This document shows positions 30,540 through 59,040 of a DNA stretch of 64,000 nt, one piece after another; positions within the stretch are counted from its first letter, which is position 1; each line of letters starts with the position of its first letter. Origin of the DNA: Escherichia coli (GTDB taxonomy: Bacteria; Pseudomonadota; Gammaproteobacteria; Enterobacterales; Enterobacteriaceae); assembly GCF_022846255.1 (NCBI RefSeq), contig NZ_AP025682.1; one strand, written 5' to 3'. The translations under genes and the position numbers were made by a program. Below the pieces are notes generated by a model. The model saw nothing but the letters and a program-made list of their open reading frames with translations, made no database searches and was not told where the DNA came from.

Positions 30540-32561
30540 TTATTTCCCTCGTTTTGCCGCCATCATAGCTTTCAGATTCGCCAGATGGCTTTGCCCTTTC
30601 TGCATCCGTTCTTCGGCGCTGACCACTTTGCGCTCCTGTTCCCAAATCAGATCATCCTGCGGCAGCTCCAGCAAAAAGCGGCTCGGCTCCGGGCGCACCA
30701 GTTCGCCGTACTGACGGCGTTCTTTACACAGCGTAAAGGTCAATTCCTTCTGGGCGCGGGTAATGCCGACATAGGCCAGCCGCCGCTCCTCATCGATATT
30801 ATCTTCATCGATGCTGCTCTGGTGCGGCAAAAACCCCTCTTCCATACCGACCATGTAGACATAAGGAAACTCCAGCCCTTTCGACGCGTGGAGAGTCATC
30901 AGTTGCACCTGATCCAGCTCTTCTTCACTCTCACCACGCTCCATCATGTCGCGCAAAGTAAAGCGCGTCACCACCTGGGTGAGCGTCATCGGCTCATCCA
31001 GTTCGCTGCCTTCCAGCATCTCCGTCATCCAGCTAAACAGTTGGTTGACGTTCTTCATGCGCATTTCGGCGGCTTTCGGGCTGGGCGATGTTTCGTACAG
31101 CCAGGATTCATAATCCATGCCGTGGATCAGATCACGCACCGCGGCAATCGGCTCCCGCTCCGCCAGACGCTGGATTTCTGCCAACCAGTGAGTGAAGCGG
31201 GTCAATGCTTCATAACCACGTCCGCTAAGCGTCTGACTCAGGCCCATATCAAAGCTGGCGGTAAACATGCTTTTATTGCGCGTCATCGCCCATTCACCCA
31301 ACTTTTTCAGCGTCGCCGGGCCAATCTCTCGCTTCGGCGTGTTAACGATACGCAGGAACGCACTATCATCGTCCGGGTTAGTCAGCACGCGCAGATAAGC
31401 CAGCAAGTCCTTGATTTCAGGACGAGAGAAAAACGACGTACCACCAGAAATTTTGTACGGGATGCGGTTTTGCATCAGGAATTTTTCAAACACCCGCGAC
31501 TGATGGTTACCGCGATAAAGAATGGCGTAATCTTTGTACTGCGTTTTATTGACGAAGTGATGGGCGATCAGCTCGCCGGTGACGCGCTCGGCTTCATGTT
31601 CCTCGTTATTCGCGCTTAAAACTTTTAGCTCTGTGCCGTAACCCAGTTCGGAGAACAGACGCTTTTCAAAGACGTGCGGATTATTGGCGATCAGGATGTT
31701 CGCCGCTTTCAAAATACGTCCGGAAGAGCGGTAGTTCTGCTCAAGCTTAATCACCTTCAGCGCCGGAAAATCCTGACTCAGCAGCACCAGGTTTTGCGGA
31801 CGTGCGCCGCGCCAGGAGTAGATCGACTGGTCATCGTCACCCACCACGGTAAAGCGCGCGCGGCTGCCCACCAGCAGTTTCACCAGCTCATACTGGCTGG
31901 TGTTGGTGTCCTGATATTCGTCCACCAGCAGGTAGCGAATTTTGTTCTGCCAGCGCTCGCGGACTTCTTCATTGCGTTGCAGAAGTAGCGTCGGCAATAA
32001 AATCAGATCATCGAAGTCGAGAACGTTACAGGCTTTCAGGTGTGCATCATACAGCCCATAACAATGGGCAAAAATACGGTCCCGCTCGCCCTTTGCCTCT
32101 GCCGCCGCCTGCGCCGGTGTTTTGAGATCGTTCTTCCAGTTGGAGATGGTCGAAATTAGCTGTTGCAGGAGAACTTTGTCATCTTCAATCAGCCCCTCGG
32201 TCAACTCTTTAAGCAAAGCAAGCTGATCGGTATCGTCAAACAGCGAAAAGTTAGCCTTCATCCCCAGCGCCGCATACTCGCGTTTGATGATATCCAGCCC
32301 CAGCGTGTGGAAGGTGGAGATCATCAGCCCACGCGCCTCTTTGCGCCCCAGCGTCTGCCCGACACGCTCTTTCATCTCGCGTGCCGCCTTATTGGTAAAG
32401 GTCACCGCCGCGATATGTCGCGCCTGATAACCGCAACCGCGGATCAGATGGGCGATTTTATTGGTGATAACACGAGTTTTACCGGAACCCGCGCCCGCCA
32501 GCACCAGGCAGGGGCCGGTAACGAATTCGACAGCTTGTTGTTGGCCGGGGTTTAGACGCAT
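30540..32561 (-). CDS. rep: ATP-dependent DNA helicase Rep (SF1)
   Basis: ORF 30540..32576; start at [29 protein letters not shown] (673 aa); Walker A present. Confidence 0.95.
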
Positions 32562-32599
32562 AGGAAAATCGCTCAATGAAAGTCGGGAGGGGAAAATAA

Positions 32600-51748: not shown

Positions 51749-53176
51749 ATGAGCGATAAAAAGAAGCGCAGTATGGCGGGTTTGCCGTGGATCGCGGCGA
51801 TGGCCTTCTTCATGCAGGCACTTGATGCCACTATTCTGAATACCGCCTTACCCGCAATCGCTCATAGCCTTAATCGTTCTCCTCTCGCGATGCAATCAGC
51901 CATCATCAGTTATACGCTGACGGTGGCGATGCTTATTCCGGTAAGCGGATGGCTAGCCGATCGCTTCGGTACGCGTCGCATATTTACCCTTGCCGTGAGT
52001 CTGTTCACGTTGGGTTCTCTGGCCTGCGCACTTTCTAACTCGCTACCACAGCTGGTTGTCTTCCGGGTTATTCAGGGGATAGGCGGCGCAATGATGATGC
52101 CTGTTGCTCGGCTGGCCTTACTGCGCGCTTATCCTCGTAATGAGCTTCTTCCTGTATTGAATTTTGTCGCCATGCCGGGTCTGGTGGGGCCAATTTTAGG
52201 CCCCGTTCTTGGCGGCGTGCTGGTCACCTGGGCAACCTGGCACTGGATATTTTTAATCAATATCCCCATAGGTATTGCGGGCCTTCTTTACGCGCACAAA
52301 CATATGCCCAATTTCACCACCGCACGACGCAGATTCGATACCACTGGCTTTTTGCTGTTTGGCCTCAGCCTTGTTCTCTTCTCAAGCGGAATAGAGCTAT
52401 TCGGGGAAAAGATTGTCGCCAGCTGGATTGCCTTGACGGTAATTGTCACCAGCATCGGGTTACTGCTTCTCTATATTCTCCATGCGCGACGCACGCCAAA
52501 CCCATTAATTTCATTAGATTTATTTAAAACCCGCACTTTCTCGATCGGTATCGTAGGCAATATTGCAACCCGTCTGGGGACCGGCTGTGTACCGTTCCTT
52601 ATGCCATTGATGTTACAGGTAGGATTTGGGTATCAGGCGTTTATTGCTGGCTGTATGATGGCACCGACAGCGTTAGGTTCCATTATTGCAAAATCGATGG
52701 TTACCCAAGTCTTACGTCGTCTGGGCTATCGCCATACGTTAGTGGGGATCACGGTGATTATAGGGCTAATGATCGCTCAGTTCTCTTTGCAATCACCAGC
52801 AATGGCGATATGGATGCTGATCTTGCCGTTGTTTATATTAGGGATGGCTATGTCGACACAATTTACCGCGATGAATACCATCACACTTGCCGATCTGACC
52901 GATGACAACGCCAGCAGCGGTAACAGTGTTCTGGCGGTCACGCAGCAACTGTCGATCAGTTTAGGCGTTGCTGTAAGTGCGGCAGTCCTTCGCGTTTACG
53001 AAGGGATGGAAGGCACAACGACAGTCGAACAGTTCCACTATACGTTTATCACGATGGGCATTATTACTGTTGCTTCAGCAGCAATGTTCATGCTACTGAA
53101 AACAACCGATGGTAATAATTTGATCAAAAGACAGCGTAAATCTAAGCCGAACCACGCTCCATCAGAATCGGAGTAA
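51749..53176 (+). CDS. hsrA: MFS transporter HsrA (YieO), 14-TM drug-efflux-like
   Basis: 475-aa hydrophobic ORF; matches HsrA; 3' end overlaps rbsR 3' end. Confidence 0.9.
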
Positions 53177-54134
53177 GTTGTAATCGTTGTTGCTGTAGGG
53201 CCGGCTGGGTTATCCGATGGATGAGTACATCAATCGCCAGCTCCCCCAGTTCATCTTTCGGTTGGTGGATAGTTGTTAATGGTGGCGTCATAAAGCTTGC
53301 CAGTTCGATATCGTCATAGCCAATCACCGCGATATCCTGCGGAACCTGTAACTCTGCCTGATATAACGCCTGGTAAACGCCAACAGCCATAGCGTCATTT
53401 CCGGTAAAGACAGCCTGAGGACGCAGCGGATGTGATAACAGTTGGCGCATGGCGTCAAACCCGCCGTTAAATTCAAAATCACCTGTGACTTCATAGCCAT
53501 CAGGAATGTTGAGACCCGCACGTTTCATCGCCGCCCGATAACCTTCCAACCGCAGGCGCGCCGGAGTTTTATCCAGCGGACCGGTAATACAGGCAATACG
53601 GGTATGACCTTTATCGATCAGATATTGCGTTGCTAAGTCTCCGCCCAGCAACGAGTTATCCTGAATAAGATCGCTGTCGCCATCGAACGGAGCCCAGTCC
53701 ATCATCACGGTAGGCACTGTCGGATAACGTTGCATGATTTCACGCGAAGGCTGATGCGTTTCGGTGCACAGTAACAGCAAGCCATCAACGCGTTTTTGCA
53801 TCAGCGTTTCCAGATTACGATTCATCCGCTGTTCATCGCCTTCGGTATTGCAAAGGACAAGACTATAACCGCGTTCGAAGCAGCTGCGTTCAACGCCACG
53901 CACCAGTTCTGAATAGAAAGGATTGGTACTGGCAGTGATCAACATGCCAATGGTATGTGTTTGATTGAGTTTGAGGCTACGCGCCAGAGCTGATGGCGCG
54001 TAATTGAGTTCTTTAATCGCCGCTTCAACTTTGGCTGTAATCGCTTCACTGACGAAGCGATCTTTATTGATAACGTGAGAAACTGTTGAGGTAGAAACGC
54101 CCGCCAGGCGGGCAACATCTTTCATTGTAGCCAA
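53142..54134 (-). CDS. rbsR: Ribose operon repressor (LacI family)
   Basis: 330-aa [32 protein letters not shown]... (HTH); last gene of rbs operon. Confidence 0.95.
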
Positions 54135-54137
54135 GCG

Positions 54138-55067
54138 TCACCTCTGCCTGTCTAAAAATGCGTCGATCTCTTCACGCCACGGTACGGAAGGTTGTGCGCC
54201 TTTACGTGTTACGGCAATCGCAGCGGCTGCATGGGCAAAACGAATCGCCTCTGGCAATGTTTTTTCTTCCAGCAACGCCGTGATTAACGCGCCGTTAAAG
54301 GTATCTCCGGCAGCAATGGTATCGACAGCCTGCACCCGGAATCCAGGAACGCGCTGACCTTCACCATTCACGCTAGCCCATACACCACGACTTCCTAAAG
54401 TAATCAGTACAGTACGGATACCTTTTTCATGCAGTACCTGCGCCGCCTTCGCTGCATCTTCATCATTTTCAACACGAATACCGGTGAGCTTTTCTGCTTC
54501 CGTTTCGTTTGGCGTAATAATGTCCACCAGCGCCAGAAGTTCGTCAGGAAGTTCACGAGCCGGAGCCGGGTTAAGCGCAACGATAGTCTTATTTTGATGG
54601 GCGATTTTCGCCGCTGCCATCACACTTTCGAGTGGTGATTCCAGCTGCATTAATAATGCCGACGCGTTGGCAATACGCTCACGTTGCGCTTCCACCAGCG
54701 CCGGGGAAAGGGCAGCATTAGCGCCGGCATGAATACCGATGACATTCTCACCTTCGCCATTAACAAAAATCAGCGCCACACCTGTTGATTCGCCTTTGAT
54801 CACGCTGACCGGAGAAATATCGATGTTATCAGTGGCGAGCTGCTGACGTACGCTCTCGCCAATGCTGTCATCACCCGTACAGGCAATAAACGCGATATTC
54901 GCACCGCTACGCCCAGCAGCCACAGCTTGATTCGCGCCTTTGCCGCCAAATGCAACCTGATAGTGGTTACCGGTTACGGTTTCGCCTGGAGTAGGAAAAG
55001 ATTGAAGATTAAGAATGTGGTCAGCATTAATGCTGCCAAGAACAACGAGGCTGCCTGCGTTTTGCAT
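54138..55067 (-). CDS. rbsK: Ribokinase
   Basis: ORF 54138..55094; start at MQNAGSLVVLGSINADHILN (309 aa). Confidence 0.94.
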   Translation of the reverse strand: MQNAGSLVVLGSINADHILNLQSFPTPGETVTGNHYQVAFGGKGANQAVAAGRSGANIAFIACTGDDSIGESVRQQLATDNIDISPVSVIKGESTGVALIFVNGEGENVIGIHAGANAALSPALVEAQRERIANASALLMQLESPLESVMAAAKIAHQNKTIVALNPAPARELPDELLALVDIITPNETEAEKLTGIRVENDEDAAKAAQVLHEKGIRTVLITLGSRGVWASVNGEGQRVPGFRVQAVDTIAAGDTFNGALITALLEEKTLPEAIRFAHAAAAIAVTRKGAQPSVPWREEIDAFLDRQR

Positions 55068-55192
55068 ATTCGGGATGTCCATAAAATGCGCCACCGTGTT
55101 AGGGTGGCGCGTGCCCTGCTTTTCTTTATATTACACGTTCATCTGTCGATGCCGTATTTATGTCACCATCAGGTCATACAACCTGATTAAAA

Positions 55193-56083
55193 CTACTGCT
55201 TAACAACCAGTTTCAGATCAACCGGATACTTAGCCTGAACTTTCTCGCCTTTCAGTACTTTATCTGCGGTTTCGACGCCTTTCGCGCCAATCTGATCGGG
55301 TAGCTGAGCGATAGTCGCTGCTAGTTTGCCATCATTCACCGCTTTTTCGCCATCCGGTGTACCGTCAAATCCGACGACCATCACATCCGATTTACCGGCA
55401 GTTTGCAGTGCGCGCAGCGCGCCCAGCGCCATTTCATCATTCTGCGCAAATACAGCCTGAACATCCGGATGAGCGGTCAACAGGTTCTGCATTACGTTCA
55501 AACCTTTGGTACGATCAAAATCTGCTGGCTGGCTGGCAAGAACATTAAACTTGTGAGCAGCAACAGCCTGCTGGAAGCCTTCGCCACGTTCACGGGCTGC
55601 GGATGTACCGGCAATGCCTTGCAGCTCGATAACTTTGGCACCTTCACCCGCTTTCTTCGCGATGTAATCACCGGCGATTTTGCCGCCCAGTACGTTATCA
55701 GAAGCAATGTGGCTCACCACTTCACCTTTCGTTGCCTAGCGGTCAAGAGTGATAACCGGGATGTTCGCCTGGTTAGCCATCTTCACAGCATTACCCACTG
55801 CGTCGGAGTCGGTCGGGTTAATCAGCAGAATTTTGGTGCCGCGAACGGTTAAGTCCTGCACGTTCGCCAGCTCTTTCGCCGGGTTGTTCTGGGAGTCCAG
55901 CACCACCAGGTTATAACCAAGTTTATCCGCCTCTTTCTGCGCGCCATCTTTCAGCGATACAAAGAACGGGTTGTTAAGCGTGGAGACCACCAGCGCGATG
56001 GTGTCTTTTGCCATCGCATTCGCACTGACGGTGGCGCTTAGCGCAACAGCGGAAACCAGGGTAGCCAGTTTTTTCATGTTCAT
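55193..56083 (-). pseudogene. rbsB: Ribose ABC transporter periplasmic binding protein RbsB, interrupted by an in-frame TAG (amber) codon at plus-strand 55736..55738
   Basis: Two same-frame ORFs (55736..56089 and 55193..55720) together give RbsB; minus strand reads ...[23 protein letters not shown]... where recalled RbsB has Gln (CAG). Confidence 0.85.
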
Positions 56084-56107
56084 ATTCAAGATGTCCTGTA
56101 GTCGTTA

Positions 56108-57073
56108 TTACTGCTTTTTGTTGTCTACCAGCACCGCCAGCAAAATCACCACCGCTTTGACGATCATCTGGTAATAGGAGGAAACACCTAACAAATTCAA
56201 TCCATTATTAAGGAAGCCAAGAATTAATGCGCCGATCAACGTCCCAACAATGCGACCTTTTCCGCCCGCCAGACTCGTACCGCCCAGAACCACCGCAGCA
56301 ATAGCATCCAGCTCATAGCCAGTCCCCGCCGTGGGTTGTGCGGAGGAGAGACGCGCCACTTCAATGATCCCGGCCAGCGATGCCAGCAGACCACAAAGAG
56401 AATAGACGATGATTTTGATTTTATTGACGTTGATACCAGAAAGACGCGTTGCCGCTTCGTTGCCGCCCAGCGCGTAGATGTAACGCCCCAGACGCGTGTG
56501 ATGCAGCATGTACCAGGCCGCGAGGAAGACAATTCCCATGATCCAGACTGGCGTCGGTACGCCCAGCGGACGACCAATACCAAACCAGCCAAACAGATCG
56601 GCGTTCTCAGTAAAGCCAGTATTCACTGGGCTACCGTTGGTATAAACCATGGTCACGCCGCGCAGTAAAAGCATCATAACCAGCGTAGCGATAAAGGCCT
56701 GGACGCGACCTTTCGCTACAATCACCCCGGTTACCGCACCAATTGCGGCACCTAACGCGAGAGCGGCAGCGACAGCCACCAGCGCATTGACTTCAATGCC
56801 AACGATAGATGCAGCAACTGCGCCAGTCAGCGCCAACAGAGAACCTACCGACAAGTCGATGCCCGACGTCAGGATCACCAGCGTCATCCCGACTGCCATA
56901 ATGGCGTTCACCGAGGTTTGCTGGAGAATATTGAATAAGTTATTGATGGTGAAAAAGTTCGGACTTAACGTCGAGACAATCGCGATCAGCACCAGCAGAG
57001 CGATAAGCGATTTCTGCTCCATCAGCCACGCTTTCGTGAAATAACGGCGACCAGAGACAGTCTGGGTTGTCAT
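56108..57073 (-). CDS. rbsC: Ribose ABC transporter permease
   Basis: 321-aa multi-TM ORF; matches RbsC. Confidence 0.95.
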   Translation of the reverse strand: MTTQTVSGRRYFTKAWLMEQKSLIALLVLIAIVSTLSPNFFTINNLFNILQQTSVNAIMAVGMTLVILTSGIDLSVGSLLALTGAVAASIVGIEVNALVAVAAALALGAAIGAVTGVIVAKGRVQAFIATLVMMLLLRGVTMVYTNGSPVNTGFTENADLFGWFGIGRPLGVPTPVWIMGIVFLAAWYMLHHTRLGRYIYALGGNEAATRLSGINVNKIKIIVYSLCGLLASLAGIIEVARLSSAQPTAGTGYELDAIAAVVLGGTSLAGGKGRIVGTLIGALILGFLNNGLNLLGVSSYYQMIVKAVVILLAVLVDNKKQ

Positions 57074-57077
57074 TTTT

Positions 57078-58583
57078 TTACTCCTGATTCACGCGATTAA
57101 GCTTGCCCACAGCGGCAGCCATTAACACTTCCTGGGTGGCCTGCTCACGAGTAAATTCCCCGCTGAGATGCCCTTCATGCATGACGATGATGCGATCGCT
57201 CATGCCTAATACTTCTGGCATCTCCGATGACACCAGAATGATGCTCAAGCCATCGGCTTTGAACTGGTTAATCAGTTGATAGATCTCTTTTTTCGCGCCG
57301 ACATCTACGCCACGGGTAGGCTCATCGAGGATCAACACTTTAGGGCGTGTCATTAGACCACGGGCAATCGCTACTTTTTGCTGATTGCCACCGGAAAGCA
57401 GACCAATTGCCTGTTCCATCGACGGCGTTTTCACATTAAACAGACGAATGAAATCACTCACTGCCTGCTGTTCATCGGCATGCTTCAAACTGCCGCCAGC
57501 GCGGCTGAAGTAGCGCAGCGCTGTCAGCGACATGTTCTCTTTTACTGACATGCCCAGCACCAAACCGTCGCGTTTACGGTCTTCGGAGATATACACAATG
57601 CCGTTTGCCAGGCCATCCTGTGGTGAACGGGTAACGACTTCATGCCCATCCAGGGTGACGTAACCGCTGGTGCGCGGCAGTGCGCCGTAGAGCACTTTCA
57701 TCAGTTCGGTACGACCTGCGCCCATCAAACCAGAGACGCCAAGGATTTCGCCTTTGCGTAAAGTAAAAGAGACATCGTTAACGCCAGGTCCGCAGAGATT
57801 ATCGACTTTCAGGCGGATATCTCCCGGCGCTTTGTCCAGGTGCGGATATTGATCTTCCAGCTTGCGGCCCACCATCATCTCAATCAGCGAATCTTCGGTC
57901 AGTGATGCTACTTCACGCTCAGCAATAAATTGCCCATCACGAAAAACGGTAACGTCATCGCAAATCTCGAAGATTTCTTTCATGCGGTGGGAGATATAGA
58001 CAATACCGCGGCCTTGCGATTTCAGCTCGCGGATGACGCGGAACAGGGATTCGGTTTCGGTATCGGTCAGTGCATCGGTCGGTTCATCCATAATGATGAC
58101 TTTCGACTCAAAGCTCAGCACTTTGGCAATTTCAACCATTTGCTGGTCACCGATGGAAAGATCGCCCACCAGCTTGTCGCTTTTAAAGCGCAGGTTAAGT
58201 TTAGCCAGCAATTTATCCGCTTCGGCATACATGGTTTTCCAGTCAATTTTGCCAAAGCGATTAACAAACTCACGACCGAGGAAAATGTTTTCGGCAATGG
58301 TCAACTGCGGGATCAGGTTCAGTTCCTGATGGATAATCCCAATCCCGGCTTCCTGGGAAGATTTCGGCCCGGTAAATGTCGTTTCTTTCCCCAGCCATAA
58401 AAGCGTGCCGGCATCGCGAGTATAGATACCAGTAAGCACTTTCATCATGGTGGATTTACCCGCGCCGTTTTCGCCCACCAGCGCCATCACGCGGCCCGGA
58501 TAGACATTTAATGCTGCGCCCGAGAGGGCTTTTACGCCCGGGAAGGCTTTATCGATGCCTTTAAGCTGAAGTAATGCTTCCAT
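57078..58583 (-). CDS. rbsA: Ribose ABC transporter ATP-binding protein (tandem ABC domains)
   Basis: 501-aa ORF with two Walker A motifs ([18 protein letters not shown]). Confidence 0.95.
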
Positions 58584-58590
58584 GACGGCC

Positions 58591-59010
58591 TCAGAACGTC
58601 ACGCCAGCACAGAGAATGATATTCGCATACGGAGAACATTCTCCGCTGCGAATTACCGCCTGACTTTCTGCGGTTTGTTGTTTGAATTGTTCATGCGTGG
58701 TGTAACGAATTTCAATGGTATTTCCCTGGTGTTTTTGCAGCTGCTCAAGGTGAGTGAGCAACGTTTCGTGGAGTTGCGGATTATGTTGTTTGATCTCCTC
58801 CGCGATAATGGCAGCCTCGACCTGCATTTCATTTGTGACGACGTCCAGCACCTGCATAAAAGAAGGTACACCCTGGGTTAATGCCATATCGATACGCGTT
58901 GTACTTTTGGGGATGGGTAAACCAGCATCACACACCACCAGCGTATCGGTATGTCCCAGACGGGAGATCACCGATGAAATATCAGAATTAAGAACGGTGC
59001 CTTTTTTCAT
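58591..59010 (-). CDS. rbsD: D-ribose pyranase
   Basis: ORF 58591..59022; start at [24 protein letters not shown] (139 aa); SD ggagaaa upstream. Confidence 0.93.
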
Positions 59011-59020
59011 TTTTTTCTCC

Positions 59021-59040
59021 ATCAGCGAAACGTTTCGCTG
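59021..59040. promoter_or_regulatory. Perfect 20-bp palindrome tcagcgaaacgtttcgctga in rbsD 5' UTR; probable RbsR (LacI-family) operator
   Basis: Sequence is its own reverse complement; central CGAAACGTTTCG fits the LacI/PurR-type operator pattern; 11 nt upstream of rbsD ATG. Confidence 0.65.

What the first reader, a model, noticed from the sequence alone, without database searches (positions are those of the whole stretch)
55095..55192. Possible 3'UTR-derived sRNA downstream of rbsB (RbsZ-like), potentially affected by the upstream nonsense codon
The 98-nt rbsB–rbsK spacer contains, on the minus strand, a GC-rich hairpin (cgccaccctaacacggtggcg) followed by a short U-tract, resembling a partial terminator or processing site. 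I recall a 3'UTR-derived sRNA (RbsZ) being reported from this end of rbsB. If it is made by processing of the rbsB mRNA, the premature stop at 55736 could reduce its level through polarity or mRNA destabilisation.
Basis: inference. Interest (0 to 1): 0.3.

Follow-up and report, generated by a model that had tools for sequence, protein, structure and literature searches.

The report
Known RbsZ small RNA after rbsB
The hairpin after the ribose-binding-protein gene is the terminator of RbsZ, an already described E. coli small RNA that soaks up the stress regulator RybB; it is intact here, and the upstream stop codon in rbsB probably dents its supply at most partly.

Summary
The hairpin is real: GCGCCACC-CUAACAC-GGUGGCGC at 55110..55088 on the minus strand, followed by AUUUUAU. 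It is the intrinsic terminator of RbsZ (b4804), a known E. coli small RNA.

K-12 rbsZ (3937045..3937278) maps to window 55316..55083 with 232 of 234 bases identical. The 3' end mapped in K-12 by Term-seq corresponds to 55083. Next to the hairpin lies AAAGAAAAGCAGGGC (55127..55113), which is complementary to the 5' seed of RybB. It is the best such site in the whole window.

This site-plus-hairpin module is present in 51 of 80 rbsB-rbsK spacers from other Enterobacterales species.

rbsK starts at ATG 55067, not GTG 55094, so the spacer is 125 nt.

The rbsB amber codon (55738..55736) is real. Its effect on RbsZ cannot be tested here. Full-length RbsZ starts at its own mapped start site (55316/7), 420 nt downstream of the amber. 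Only the share processed from operon mRNA could suffer, so any loss should be partial.

In passing: the amber is a C-to-T change at the inner C of a Dcm site (CCAGG), and it recurs on at least seven different haplotypes.

Verdict: already known, low interest.

The parts
55083..55316 (-). Full-length RbsZ small RNA (234 nt), the orthologue of K-12 rbsZ b4804 (3937045..3937278). Its first 124 nt overlap the end of the rbsB reading frame.
   Evidence: K-12 annotation. Alignment gives 232/234 identical, with substitutions at 55256 and 55152. Published coordinates are in PMC8175672.
55316..55317 (-). RbsZ transcription start inside rbsB, mapped in K-12 at 3937044 (Thomason 2015) and 3937045 (Ju 2019).
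   Evidence: PMC8175672 Suppl. Table 6. Window sequence is identical to K-12 from -131 to +59 around it. The scan found no sigma-70 consensus.
55083..55196 (-). Probable short form RbsZ-S (about 113 nt). Its 5' end is inferred from RNase E sites mapped in K-12 at 3937165/6, on the rbsB stop codon.
   Evidence: RNase E sites are listed in PMC8175672 Suppl. Table 6. RNase E processing of rbsZ is stated in PMC11347164. Both published northern probes lie in 55183..55134. The exact 5' end is an inference.
55168..55187 (-). First hairpin (AUCAGGUU-GUAU-GACCUGAU), directly after the rbsB stop codon.
   Evidence: Fold of the spacer. A hairpin at this place forms in all 29 short-type spacers folded. 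4 of 8 consensus pairs show compensatory double changes in 24 species.
55133..55157 (-). Second hairpin (UACGGCAUC-GACA-GAUGAACGU). It is present only in the Escherichia/Citrobacter/Salmonella type of spacer and carries the G/T polymorphism at 55152.
   Evidence: Fold; alignment of 40 spacers.
55113..55127 (-). RybB-binding site AAAGAAAAGCAGGGC, unpaired in the predicted fold. It pairs with RybB nt 1-16 as 12 bp, then bulged A4, then 3 bp.
   Evidence: RybB sequence from K-12. Duplex energy is -22.2 kcal/mol. It is single-copy in the window. It is the only one of 1022 tiles on both strands at or below -22.2. 56 of 80 species spacers score at or below -19.
55088..55110 (-).
   Evidence: The stem is invariant in 40 of 40 aligned species while the loop varies.
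55081..55087 (-). U-tail AUUUUAU. The RbsZ 3' end is at 55083, which corresponds to K-12 3937278.
   Evidence: Term-seq 3' end at 3937278 (score 107544) with an identical 61-nt context, in PMC7815308 suppl. file 1.
55129..55135 (-). Cluster of RNase E cleavage positions mapped in K-12 (3937226..3937232), just 5' of the RybB site.
   Evidence: PMC8175672 Suppl. Table 6. The sequence here is identical to K-12.
55193..56083 (-). rbsB, the host gene, interrupted by an amber codon.
   Evidence: ORF list and alignment to K-12.
55736..55738 (-). Amber codon (CAG to TAG, codon 115 of the precursor). It is a C-to-T change at the inner C of the Dcm site CCAGG.
   Evidence: Alignment. The identical truncated product is known from public assemblies.
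55065..55067 (-). True rbsK start codon (ATG), 16 nt after the RbsZ 3' end.
   Evidence: K-12 annotation. RbsK of 71 of 80 species aligns from residue 1.

Best explanation

How it is made: a 234-nt RNA starts at a promoter inside rbsB (window 55316/7) and ends at the intrinsic terminator 16 nt before rbsK (3' end at 55083). A shorter form, RbsZ-S, runs from about the rbsB stop codon (about 55196) to the same 3' end. It is cut out by RNase E, either from the 234-nt RNA or from rbsDACB operon mRNA.

How it works: the single-stranded stretch AAAGAAAAGCAGGGC (55127..55113), just 5' of the terminator, pairs with the 5' seed of the envelope-stress small RNA RybB. On Hfq this pairing leads to RNase III-dependent loss of RybB. 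That relieves RybB targets such as ompC and rbsB itself. On ProQ the same duplex is protected.

A second role: the terminator has only four consecutive U, so it is leaky and also acts as an attenuator between rbsB and rbsK.

In this strain rbsB carries an amber codon 420 nt upstream of the RbsZ start site. RbsZ itself is intact. I expect it still to be made from its own promoter. At most, the operon-derived, ribose-inducible share of RbsZ-S is reduced.

Shown here: sequence identity, anatomy, complementarity and conservation. Taken from the literature: expression, sponge activity and processing. Inferred: the RbsZ-S 5' end and the size of any amber effect.
For: Identity:
- The K-12 record annotates rbsZ b4804 at 3937045..3937278.
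- The window is 232/234 identical over that interval, with no indels.

3' end:
- The terminator-like site is at 55110..55088.
- Term-seq in K-12 gives a strong 3' end at 3937278 in an identical sequence context.

5' ends:
- Transcription starts at 3937044/5 and RNase E sites at 3937165/6 are listed in PMC8175672 Suppl. Table 6.
- RNase E processing of rbsZ is reported in PMC11347164.

Function, from papers:
- RbsZ overexpression lowers RybB and raises ompC mRNA.
- Decay is Hfq-dependent and RNase III-mediated, and ProQ protects the duplex.
- RbsZ-S is processed from rbsDACB/rbsB transcripts, and the long form has a separate promoter.
- The RybB-RbsZ contact was recovered by RIL-seq (186-574 chimeras) and by TRIC-seq.

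Complementarity:
- The RybB seed pairs with 55127..55113 at -22.2 kcal/mol.
- This is the single best site among 1022 tiles of the window.

Conservation:
- The 61-nt core is identical in 5151 of 5398 complete E. coli genomes.
- 56 of 80 species spacers keep a seed match at or below -19 kcal/mol, against 5 of 1022 background tiles. 51 keep both site and hairpin.
- The site variants (..GCAGGGC..GUGUGGC..GCAUGGC..GCGUGGC) change the two central bases but keep about 15 pairs with one bulge.
Against: - No expression data exist for this strain.
- No sigma-70-like promoter was found at the internal start.
- Synonymous sites of rbsB around that start are not more conserved than the gene average: 0.74-0.77 against 0.70. 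So the internal promoter has no cross-species support here.
- Duplex energy alone is not unique when a longer RybB stretch is used. A GC-rich site inside rep scores -24.2 kcal/mol.
- The U-tail is short, and in most other genera it is degenerate. There the 3' end may not arise by intrinsic termination.
- The primary paper (Melamed et al. 2020, Mol Cell) is not held in the library. The mechanism is cited from secondary accounts.
Confidence: 0.9

Rival explanations
1. One reading: the amber codon substantially lowers RbsZ. Ribosome-free rbsB mRNA downstream of 55736 would allow Rho to terminate or nucleases to attack. Less RNA would then reach the 3' region from which RbsZ-S is cut.
For: - RbsZ-S is reported to be processed from rbsDACB/rbsB transcripts.
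- 540 nt of rbsB lie untranslated after the amber.
- One stretch, 55596..55467, has C>G, ratio 1.05-1.24.
- An indirect route also exists (inference). Without RbsB there is no high-affinity ribose uptake, so RbsR repression of the operon is relieved less.
Against: - The 234-nt RbsZ has its own mapped start 420 nt downstream of the amber, in sequence identical to K-12. Its coding-overlap part is untranslated in the wild type too.
- Most of 55735..55317 is G-rich, with C/G of 0.5-0.85, which is poor Rho-loading material.
- An in-frame GTG at 55720 or 55717, preceded by AAGGTGA, follows the stop by 16-19 nt. Gene callers start a 174-aa product at 55717. Re-initiation there would suppress polarity.
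Confidence: 0.3
2. The hairpin is only an intra-operon attenuator or 3' stabiliser. It would set the rbsB:rbsK expression ratio, as stem-loops after binding-protein genes do in other ABC operons, with no trans-acting RNA function.
For: - The position between the binding-protein gene and rbsK, and the short leaky U-tail, fit this role.
- The hairpin persists in some species that lack the RybB site: 62 have the hairpin and 51 have both. L024 and L029 keep only the hairpin.
Against: - A discrete RNA and its sponge activity are documented in K-12.
- The adjacent RybB-complementary site is conserved far beyond chance.
- The two roles are compatible, so this is an added function rather than an alternative.
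Confidence: 0.05
3. The conserved site is mainly a cis target through which RybB controls rbs mRNA (rbsB stability or rbsK expression), and not a sponge acting on RybB.
For: - RybB is said to regulate RbsB itself.
- The site sits on the operon mRNA 46 nt upstream of the rbsK ATG.
- Regulation between sponge and small RNA is often reciprocal; this was shown for FtsO and RybB.
Against: - Overexpressed RbsZ lowers RybB and raises ompC mRNA.
- The site is too far from the rbsK ribosome-binding site for simple occlusion (sequence).
Confidence: 0.12
4. The hairpin is a chance hairpin or a repetitive extragenic palindrome.
For: Terminator-like hits in the 1.5-kb region are not strongly enriched: 4 found against 1.7 +/- 1.2 expected.
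Against: - It is single-copy in 64 kb.
- It is classed as a Rho-independent terminator, not a REP, by RepRanger.
- The stem is invariant in 40 species.
- A 3' end is mapped to it.
Confidence: 0.01

Closest known systems
RbsZ / RbsZ-S of E. coli K-12 (rbsZ, b4804; Melamed et al. 2020 Mol Cell)
   Same: Same locus, strand and length. 232 of 234 bases are identical. The RybB site, the terminator, the 3'-end context and the region around the internal start are all identical.
   Different: There are two common polymorphisms: 55256 A/G, silent in rbsB, and 55152 G/T in the second hairpin. The host gene rbsB carries an amber codon 420 nt upstream of the RbsZ start.
FtsO and 3'ETS-leuZ, the other two documented RybB sponges
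   Same: They pair with RybB and lower its activity or level.
   Different: Their origins differ: inside the ftsI reading frame, and a tRNA precursor spacer. There is no sequence relationship beyond RybB complementarity. RbsZ had the stronger effect on RybB in the comparison with FtsO.
SroC, the GcvB sponge from the gltIJKL ABC-transporter operon
   Same: A sponge cut from an ABC-transporter operon transcript. It acts back on a small RNA that represses the same operon, giving a positive loop.
   Different: Different operon, partner small RNA and sequence. RbsZ additionally has its own promoter.
3'UTR-derived small RNAs cut by RNase E near the stop codon (CpxQ, SdhX, RaiZ/RaiZ-S)
   Same: They share the parent mRNA's terminator, have RNase E-generated 5' ends, and exist in long and short forms. 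RaiZ and RbsZ are both ProQ ligands.
   Different: RbsZ lies inside an operon, before rbsK, rather than at its end. It acts on a small RNA rather than on mRNAs.

Membership tests
RbsZ (E. coli K-12 b4804) | Lies on the rbs operon strand, spanning the last about 124 nt of rbsB and the rbsB-rbsK spacer | tested here: met
   The rbsDACBKR gene order is on the minus strand. K-12 coordinates map base for base.
RbsZ (E. coli K-12 b4804) | Sequence near-identical to the K-12 gene | tested here: met
   232/234 identical with no indels. Some complete E. coli genomes are 100% identical over 249 nt.
RbsZ (E. coli K-12 b4804) | 3' end at a stem-loop plus U-run, 16 nt before rbsK | tested here: met
   Hairpin at 55110..55088 plus AUUUUAU. 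The K-12 Term-seq 3' end at 3937278 has an identical 61-nt context. The actual 3' end in this strain was not measured.
RbsZ (E. coli K-12 b4804) | Complementarity to the 5' seed of RybB | tested here: met
   55127..55113 pairs with RybB nt 1-16 at -22.2 kcal/mol. It is the best site in the window.
RbsZ (E. coli K-12 b4804) | Own transcription start inside rbsB (K-12 3937044/5) | tested here: inconclusive
   The sequence from -131 to +59 is identical to K-12, where two data sets map the start. However, no sigma-70-like promoter was detected, there is no excess synonymous conservation, and activity was not measured.
RbsZ (E. coli K-12 b4804) | Accumulates as discrete RNAs; binds Hfq and ProQ; lowers RybB via RNase III | not testable with these tools
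   Known only from the literature on K-12 and EHEC.
Intrinsic (Rho-independent) terminator | G+C-rich stem-loop | tested here: met
   8 pairs, 7 of them G-C, with a 7-nt loop, folding at -15.2 kcal/mol.
Intrinsic (Rho-independent) terminator | Run of U immediately after the stem | tested here: met
   AUUUUAUGGA has 5 U in 8, which passes the scan's rule. Only 4 U are consecutive, so it is probably leaky. In most other genera the run is 3 U or fewer.
Repetitive extragenic palindrome (REP) | Many dispersed copies of the same palindrome | tested here: not met
   One copy in 64 kb, allowing 1 mismatch. RepRanger lists rbsZ as RIT, not REP.
Any Rfam 15 family | Covariance-model match | tested here: not met
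   No hit over 55083..55316 even at E <= 10. Rfam has no RbsZ model.
RNase E-processed 3'UTR-type small RNA | RNase E cleavage near the stop codon of the host gene, generating the short form | tested here: inconclusive
   K-12 cleavage sites at 3937165/6 correspond to window 55196/5, in identical sequence. Processing by RNase E is stated. Assigning these sites as the RbsZ-S 5' end is my inference.

The most novel reading that the evidence does not exclude
Strains carrying this amber allele are natural separation-of-function variants. The coding function of rbsB is lost through a recurrent mutation at a Dcm methylation hot spot. The embedded RybB sponge is kept intact and is still expressed from its own promoter, but it is uncoupled from ribose induction. 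If so, comparing amber and wild-type isolates would show how much of a 3'-region small RNA comes from the host mRNA and how much from its internal promoter. It would also show whether nonsense polarity reaches embedded small RNAs.
Probability: 0.3. Interest if true: 0.3.

Novelty: already known. Interest (0 to 1): 0.12.

Why it matters
For the scan it matters mostly as a correct call of a known element. RbsZ is missing from Rfam and from routine PGAP annotation: 'none' is listed under the match in the complete genomes shown. A sequence-only reader recognising it is therefore useful, but it adds no new biology.

Two modest additions come from this check.
- The RybB site plus hairpin is a compact module conserved across many Enterobacterales, including genera with 60-nt spacers. 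The site variants preserve pairing.
- The strain offers a natural test of whether a nonsense codon in the host gene affects an embedded small RNA.

Tried and rejected
- Rfam scan at E <= 10 found nothing at the locus.
- The promoter scan found no sigma-70-like site for the internal start.
- The primary RbsZ paper could not be read by PubMed id, PMC id or DOI. A search for 'RbsZ-S' gave one preprint with no coordinates. The supplements of PMC11347164 are not held.
- A whole-molecule RybB x RbsZ duplex calculation was discarded as meaningless because it ignores intramolecular folding. Only the seed calculation was kept.
- A consensus fold of the full 40-sequence spacer alignment recovered only the invariant terminator stem, because indels scramble the 5' half. 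The 5' hairpin had to be analysed on a subset.
- Synonymous-site conservation along rbsB in 56 species showed no peak at the internal promoter or over the coding part of RbsZ.
- The C/G composition scan for Rho loading sites gave one weak patch only. This is suggestive, not decisive.
- A -24.2 kcal/mol RybB match inside rep (30799..30778) was judged to be a chance GC-rich match and was not pursued.
- I first read the amber as private to this strain, because 0 of 5387 complete genomes carry the identical 61-mer. That reading was rejected once the exact truncated product was found on 60 contigs in other assemblies.

Full report
**Context.** Window 53142..59022 on the minus strand carries an E. 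coli-type rbsD-rbsA-rbsC-rbsB-rbsK-rbsR operon, flanked by kup and hsrA. A 1.3-kb piece around rbsB matches 5,399 of 5,426 complete E. coli genomes at up to 99.5% identity.

**Observation.**
- On the minus strand the spacer after rbsB contains GCGCCACC-CUAACAC-GGUGGCGC (55110..55088) followed by AUUUUAUGGA.
- The scan tool lists it as a terminator-like site with 8 pairs, 7 of them G-C.
- The hairpin alone folds at -15.2 kcal/mol. The whole spacer folds 3.9 sd better than shuffles.
GTG 55094 lies inside the 3' arm of the hairpin. The annotated and conserved rbsK start is ATG 55067. The spacer is therefore 55068..55192, 125 nt.

**What it is.**
- The curated K-12 MG1655 record annotates ncRNA rbsZ (b4804, 'small regulatory RNA RbsZ') at 3937045..3937278. 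The same coordinates are given in PMC8175672.
- Alignment shows no indels, so K-12 position x equals window 55193 - (x - 3937168). RbsZ is therefore window 55316..55083.
- There are two substitutions: 55256, silent in rbsB, and 55152, in the spacer. Both are common E. coli alleles, and some complete genomes are 100% identical to the window here.
- Term-seq data (PMC7815308, suppl. file 1) list a strong 3' end at 3937278. Its 61-nt context is identical to the window, which puts the RNA's 3' end at 55083, the fourth U after the hairpin.
- PMC8175672 Suppl. Table 6 lists transcription starts at 3937044 (Thomason 2015) and 3937045 (Ju 2019), equal to window 55317/55316.
- The same table lists RNase E sites at 3937165/6, equal to window 55196/55195, on the rbsB stop codon. 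It also lists a cluster at 3937226-32, equal to 55135..55129.
- Both published northern probes lie between 55183 and 55134. I therefore infer that the short form RbsZ-S runs from about 55196 to 55083, about 113 nt.
- Rfam 15 has no model that matches.

**How it works (literature).**
- RbsZ is a sponge of the sigma-E-dependent small RNA RybB. Overexpression lowers RybB and raises ompC mRNA.
- The effect needs Hfq and involves RNase III, while ProQ binding protects the duplex.
- RbsZ-S is processed from rbsDACB/rbsB transcripts, and a longer form comes from a separate promoter. Sponging RybB relieves repression of rbsB itself.
- The RybB-RbsZ contact is seen in RIL-seq (186-574 chimeras) and in TRIC-seq.
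- I could not read the primary paper.

**What the sequence shows.**
- I took RybB from K-12.
- Its first 16 nt pair with AAAGAAAAGCAGGGC at 55127..55113 as 12 bp, a bulged A4, then 3 bp, at -22.2 kcal/mol.
- That stretch is unpaired in the predicted fold and single-copy in the window.
- It is the only one of 1,022 tiles on both strands at or below -22.2. Five tiles reach -19.
- Read in the frame AAG-AAA-AGC-AGG, it is also four A-R-N triplets, the kind of motif bound by the distal face of Hfq (my reading of the sequence).

**Conservation.**
- Within E. coli, the 61-nt core (55138..55078) is identical in 5,151 of 5,398 genomes.
- I fetched 80 rbsB loci from species-representative genomes and extracted every rbsB-rbsK spacer.
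- 56 of 80 have a RybB-seed match at or below -19 kcal/mol, 62 have the GCCAC...GUGGC hairpin, and 51 have both.
- The module occurs in Escherichia, Citrobacter, Salmonella, Klebsiella/Raoultella, Enterobacter, Leclercia, Kluyvera, Kosakonia, Buttiauxella, Cedecea, Erwinia, Pantoea and one Yersinia.
- It is absent in Serratia, Dickeya and most Yersinia.
- In Pantoea and Erwinia the whole spacer is about 61-64 nt. It consists of little more than the site and the hairpin, so that is the minimal module.
- The site variants differ at the two central bases but keep about 15 pairs with one bulge: 27 x ..GCAGGGCA, 9 x ..GUGUGGCA, 9 x ..GCAUGGCA, 4 x ..GCGUGGCA. This is the pattern expected for selection on pairing with an invariant RybB seed. 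That the seed is invariant is my assumption from general knowledge.
- The terminator stem is invariant in 40 of 40 aligned species while its loop varies.
- The hairpin directly after the rbsB stop codon is kept through compensatory changes in 4 of 8 pairs.
- The U-run after the terminator is good only in Escherichia and a few others. Enterobacter has GCUCUCAGAUGG. The way the 3' end forms may therefore differ between genera.

**The amber codon and its possible effect.**
- CAG to TAG at 55738..55736 is confirmed against K-12 and the closest complete genome.
- Arguments against a strong effect on RbsZ:
  - The mapped RbsZ start is 420 nt downstream of the amber.
  - The window is identical to K-12 from -131 to +59 around that start.
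  - The RNA between the amber and that start is mostly G-rich, with one modest C>G patch at 55596..55467.
  - An in-frame GTG (55720, and another at 55717) preceded by AAGGTGA lies 16-19 nt after the stop. Gene callers begin a 174-aa product at 55717, so re-initiation could limit polarity.
- Arguments for some effect:
  - RbsZ-S is reported to come in part from operon mRNA.
  - Loss of RbsB should blunt ribose induction of the operon (inference).
- I put the chance of a measurable reduction at about 0.3, and of abolition at well under 0.05. Nothing here can test it.

**Side observation on the amber.**
- The mutated base is the inner C of CCAGG, a Dcm methylation site. C-to-T change there by deamination of 5-methylcytosine is the classical amber hot spot (established knowledge from lacI).
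- No complete RefSeq genome has the identical 61-mer.
- However, the exact 115-aa truncated product is on record, for example as BDH35648.1 from E. coli. It was seen on 60 contigs, and the index lists it in 102 blocks of the collection.
- Six fetched carriers and the window are seven different haplotypes, with 38-106 differences in 6.3 kb. The nearest distinguishing SNPs lie only 35-121 nt from the amber. This points to recurrent independent origin rather than one clone.
- RbsZ is intact in all seven.

**Verdict.** The identification as RbsZ is right and already known. The proposed dependence on the nonsense codon is untested and, from the architecture, at most partial. Interest is low.

Noticed in passing
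window 55736..55740 (minus strand); loci L084-L089 position 3346: The rbsB amber is a C-to-T change at the inner C of the Dcm site CCAGG, a classical 5-methylcytosine deamination hot spot. The same truncated 115-aa product was seen on 60 public contigs. The six fetched carriers plus the window are seven distinct haplotypes, with the nearest distinguishing SNPs 35-121 nt away, so the mutation seems to recur independently. No RefSeq complete genome carries the identical 61-mer.
   Followed up: partly
window 55717..55728 (minus strand): In-frame GTG codons at 55720 and 55717, preceded by the Shine-Dalgarno-like AAGGTGA, lie 16-19 nt after the amber. Gene callers start a 174-aa C-terminal RbsB fragment at 55717. 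Re-initiation here would reduce polarity on downstream genes.
   Followed up: no
window 55067 versus 55094: The longest-ORF start of rbsK (GTG 55094) lies inside the 3' arm of the terminator and is not the real start. The annotated and conserved start is ATG 55067.
   Followed up: yes
window 55088..55110; alignment A3 columns 120-145: The terminator stem CGCCACC/GGUGGCG is invariant in 40 of 40 species, while its loop varies and the U-run after it decays in most genera. This is more sequence constraint than a stem needs, and it is unexplained. Protein recognition, or a role in rbsK expression, are guesses.
   Followed up: partly
window 55168..55187; alignment A4: A hairpin directly after the rbsB stop codon is kept across genera by compensatory changes (4 of 8 pairs). 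It is absent from the short 60-75-nt spacers of Pantoea, Erwinia and Buttiauxella. Its role is not known; it could form the 5' structure of RbsZ-S or act as an mRNA 3' stabiliser.
   Followed up: partly
window 55100..55118 (plus strand): A terminator-like hit on the opposite strand (TAGGGTGGCGCGTGCCCTG + CTTTTCTTTA). Its T-run is simply the complement of the A-rich RybB site, and no convergent plus-strand gene ends nearby. It is probably incidental.
   Followed up: no
window 30778..30799 (minus strand), inside the rep helicase ORF 30540..32576: The first 20 nt of RybB can form a -24.2 kcal/mol GC-rich duplex here. It is probably chance, since it is not among the best sites for the 16-nt seed.
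   Followed up: partly
window 55083..55316: RbsZ has no Rfam family. It is not annotated under the match in the PGAP-annotated complete genomes listed ('none'); in this search only the curated K-12 record names it.
   Followed up: yes
window 55124 and 55129..55135 (minus strand): K-12 data place a cluster of RNase E sites (3937226-32) and a second 'TSS' call (3937237) at, or just 5' of, the RybB-binding site. This hints at a very short 3' fragment or a decay intermediate whose meaning is unclear.
   Followed up: no
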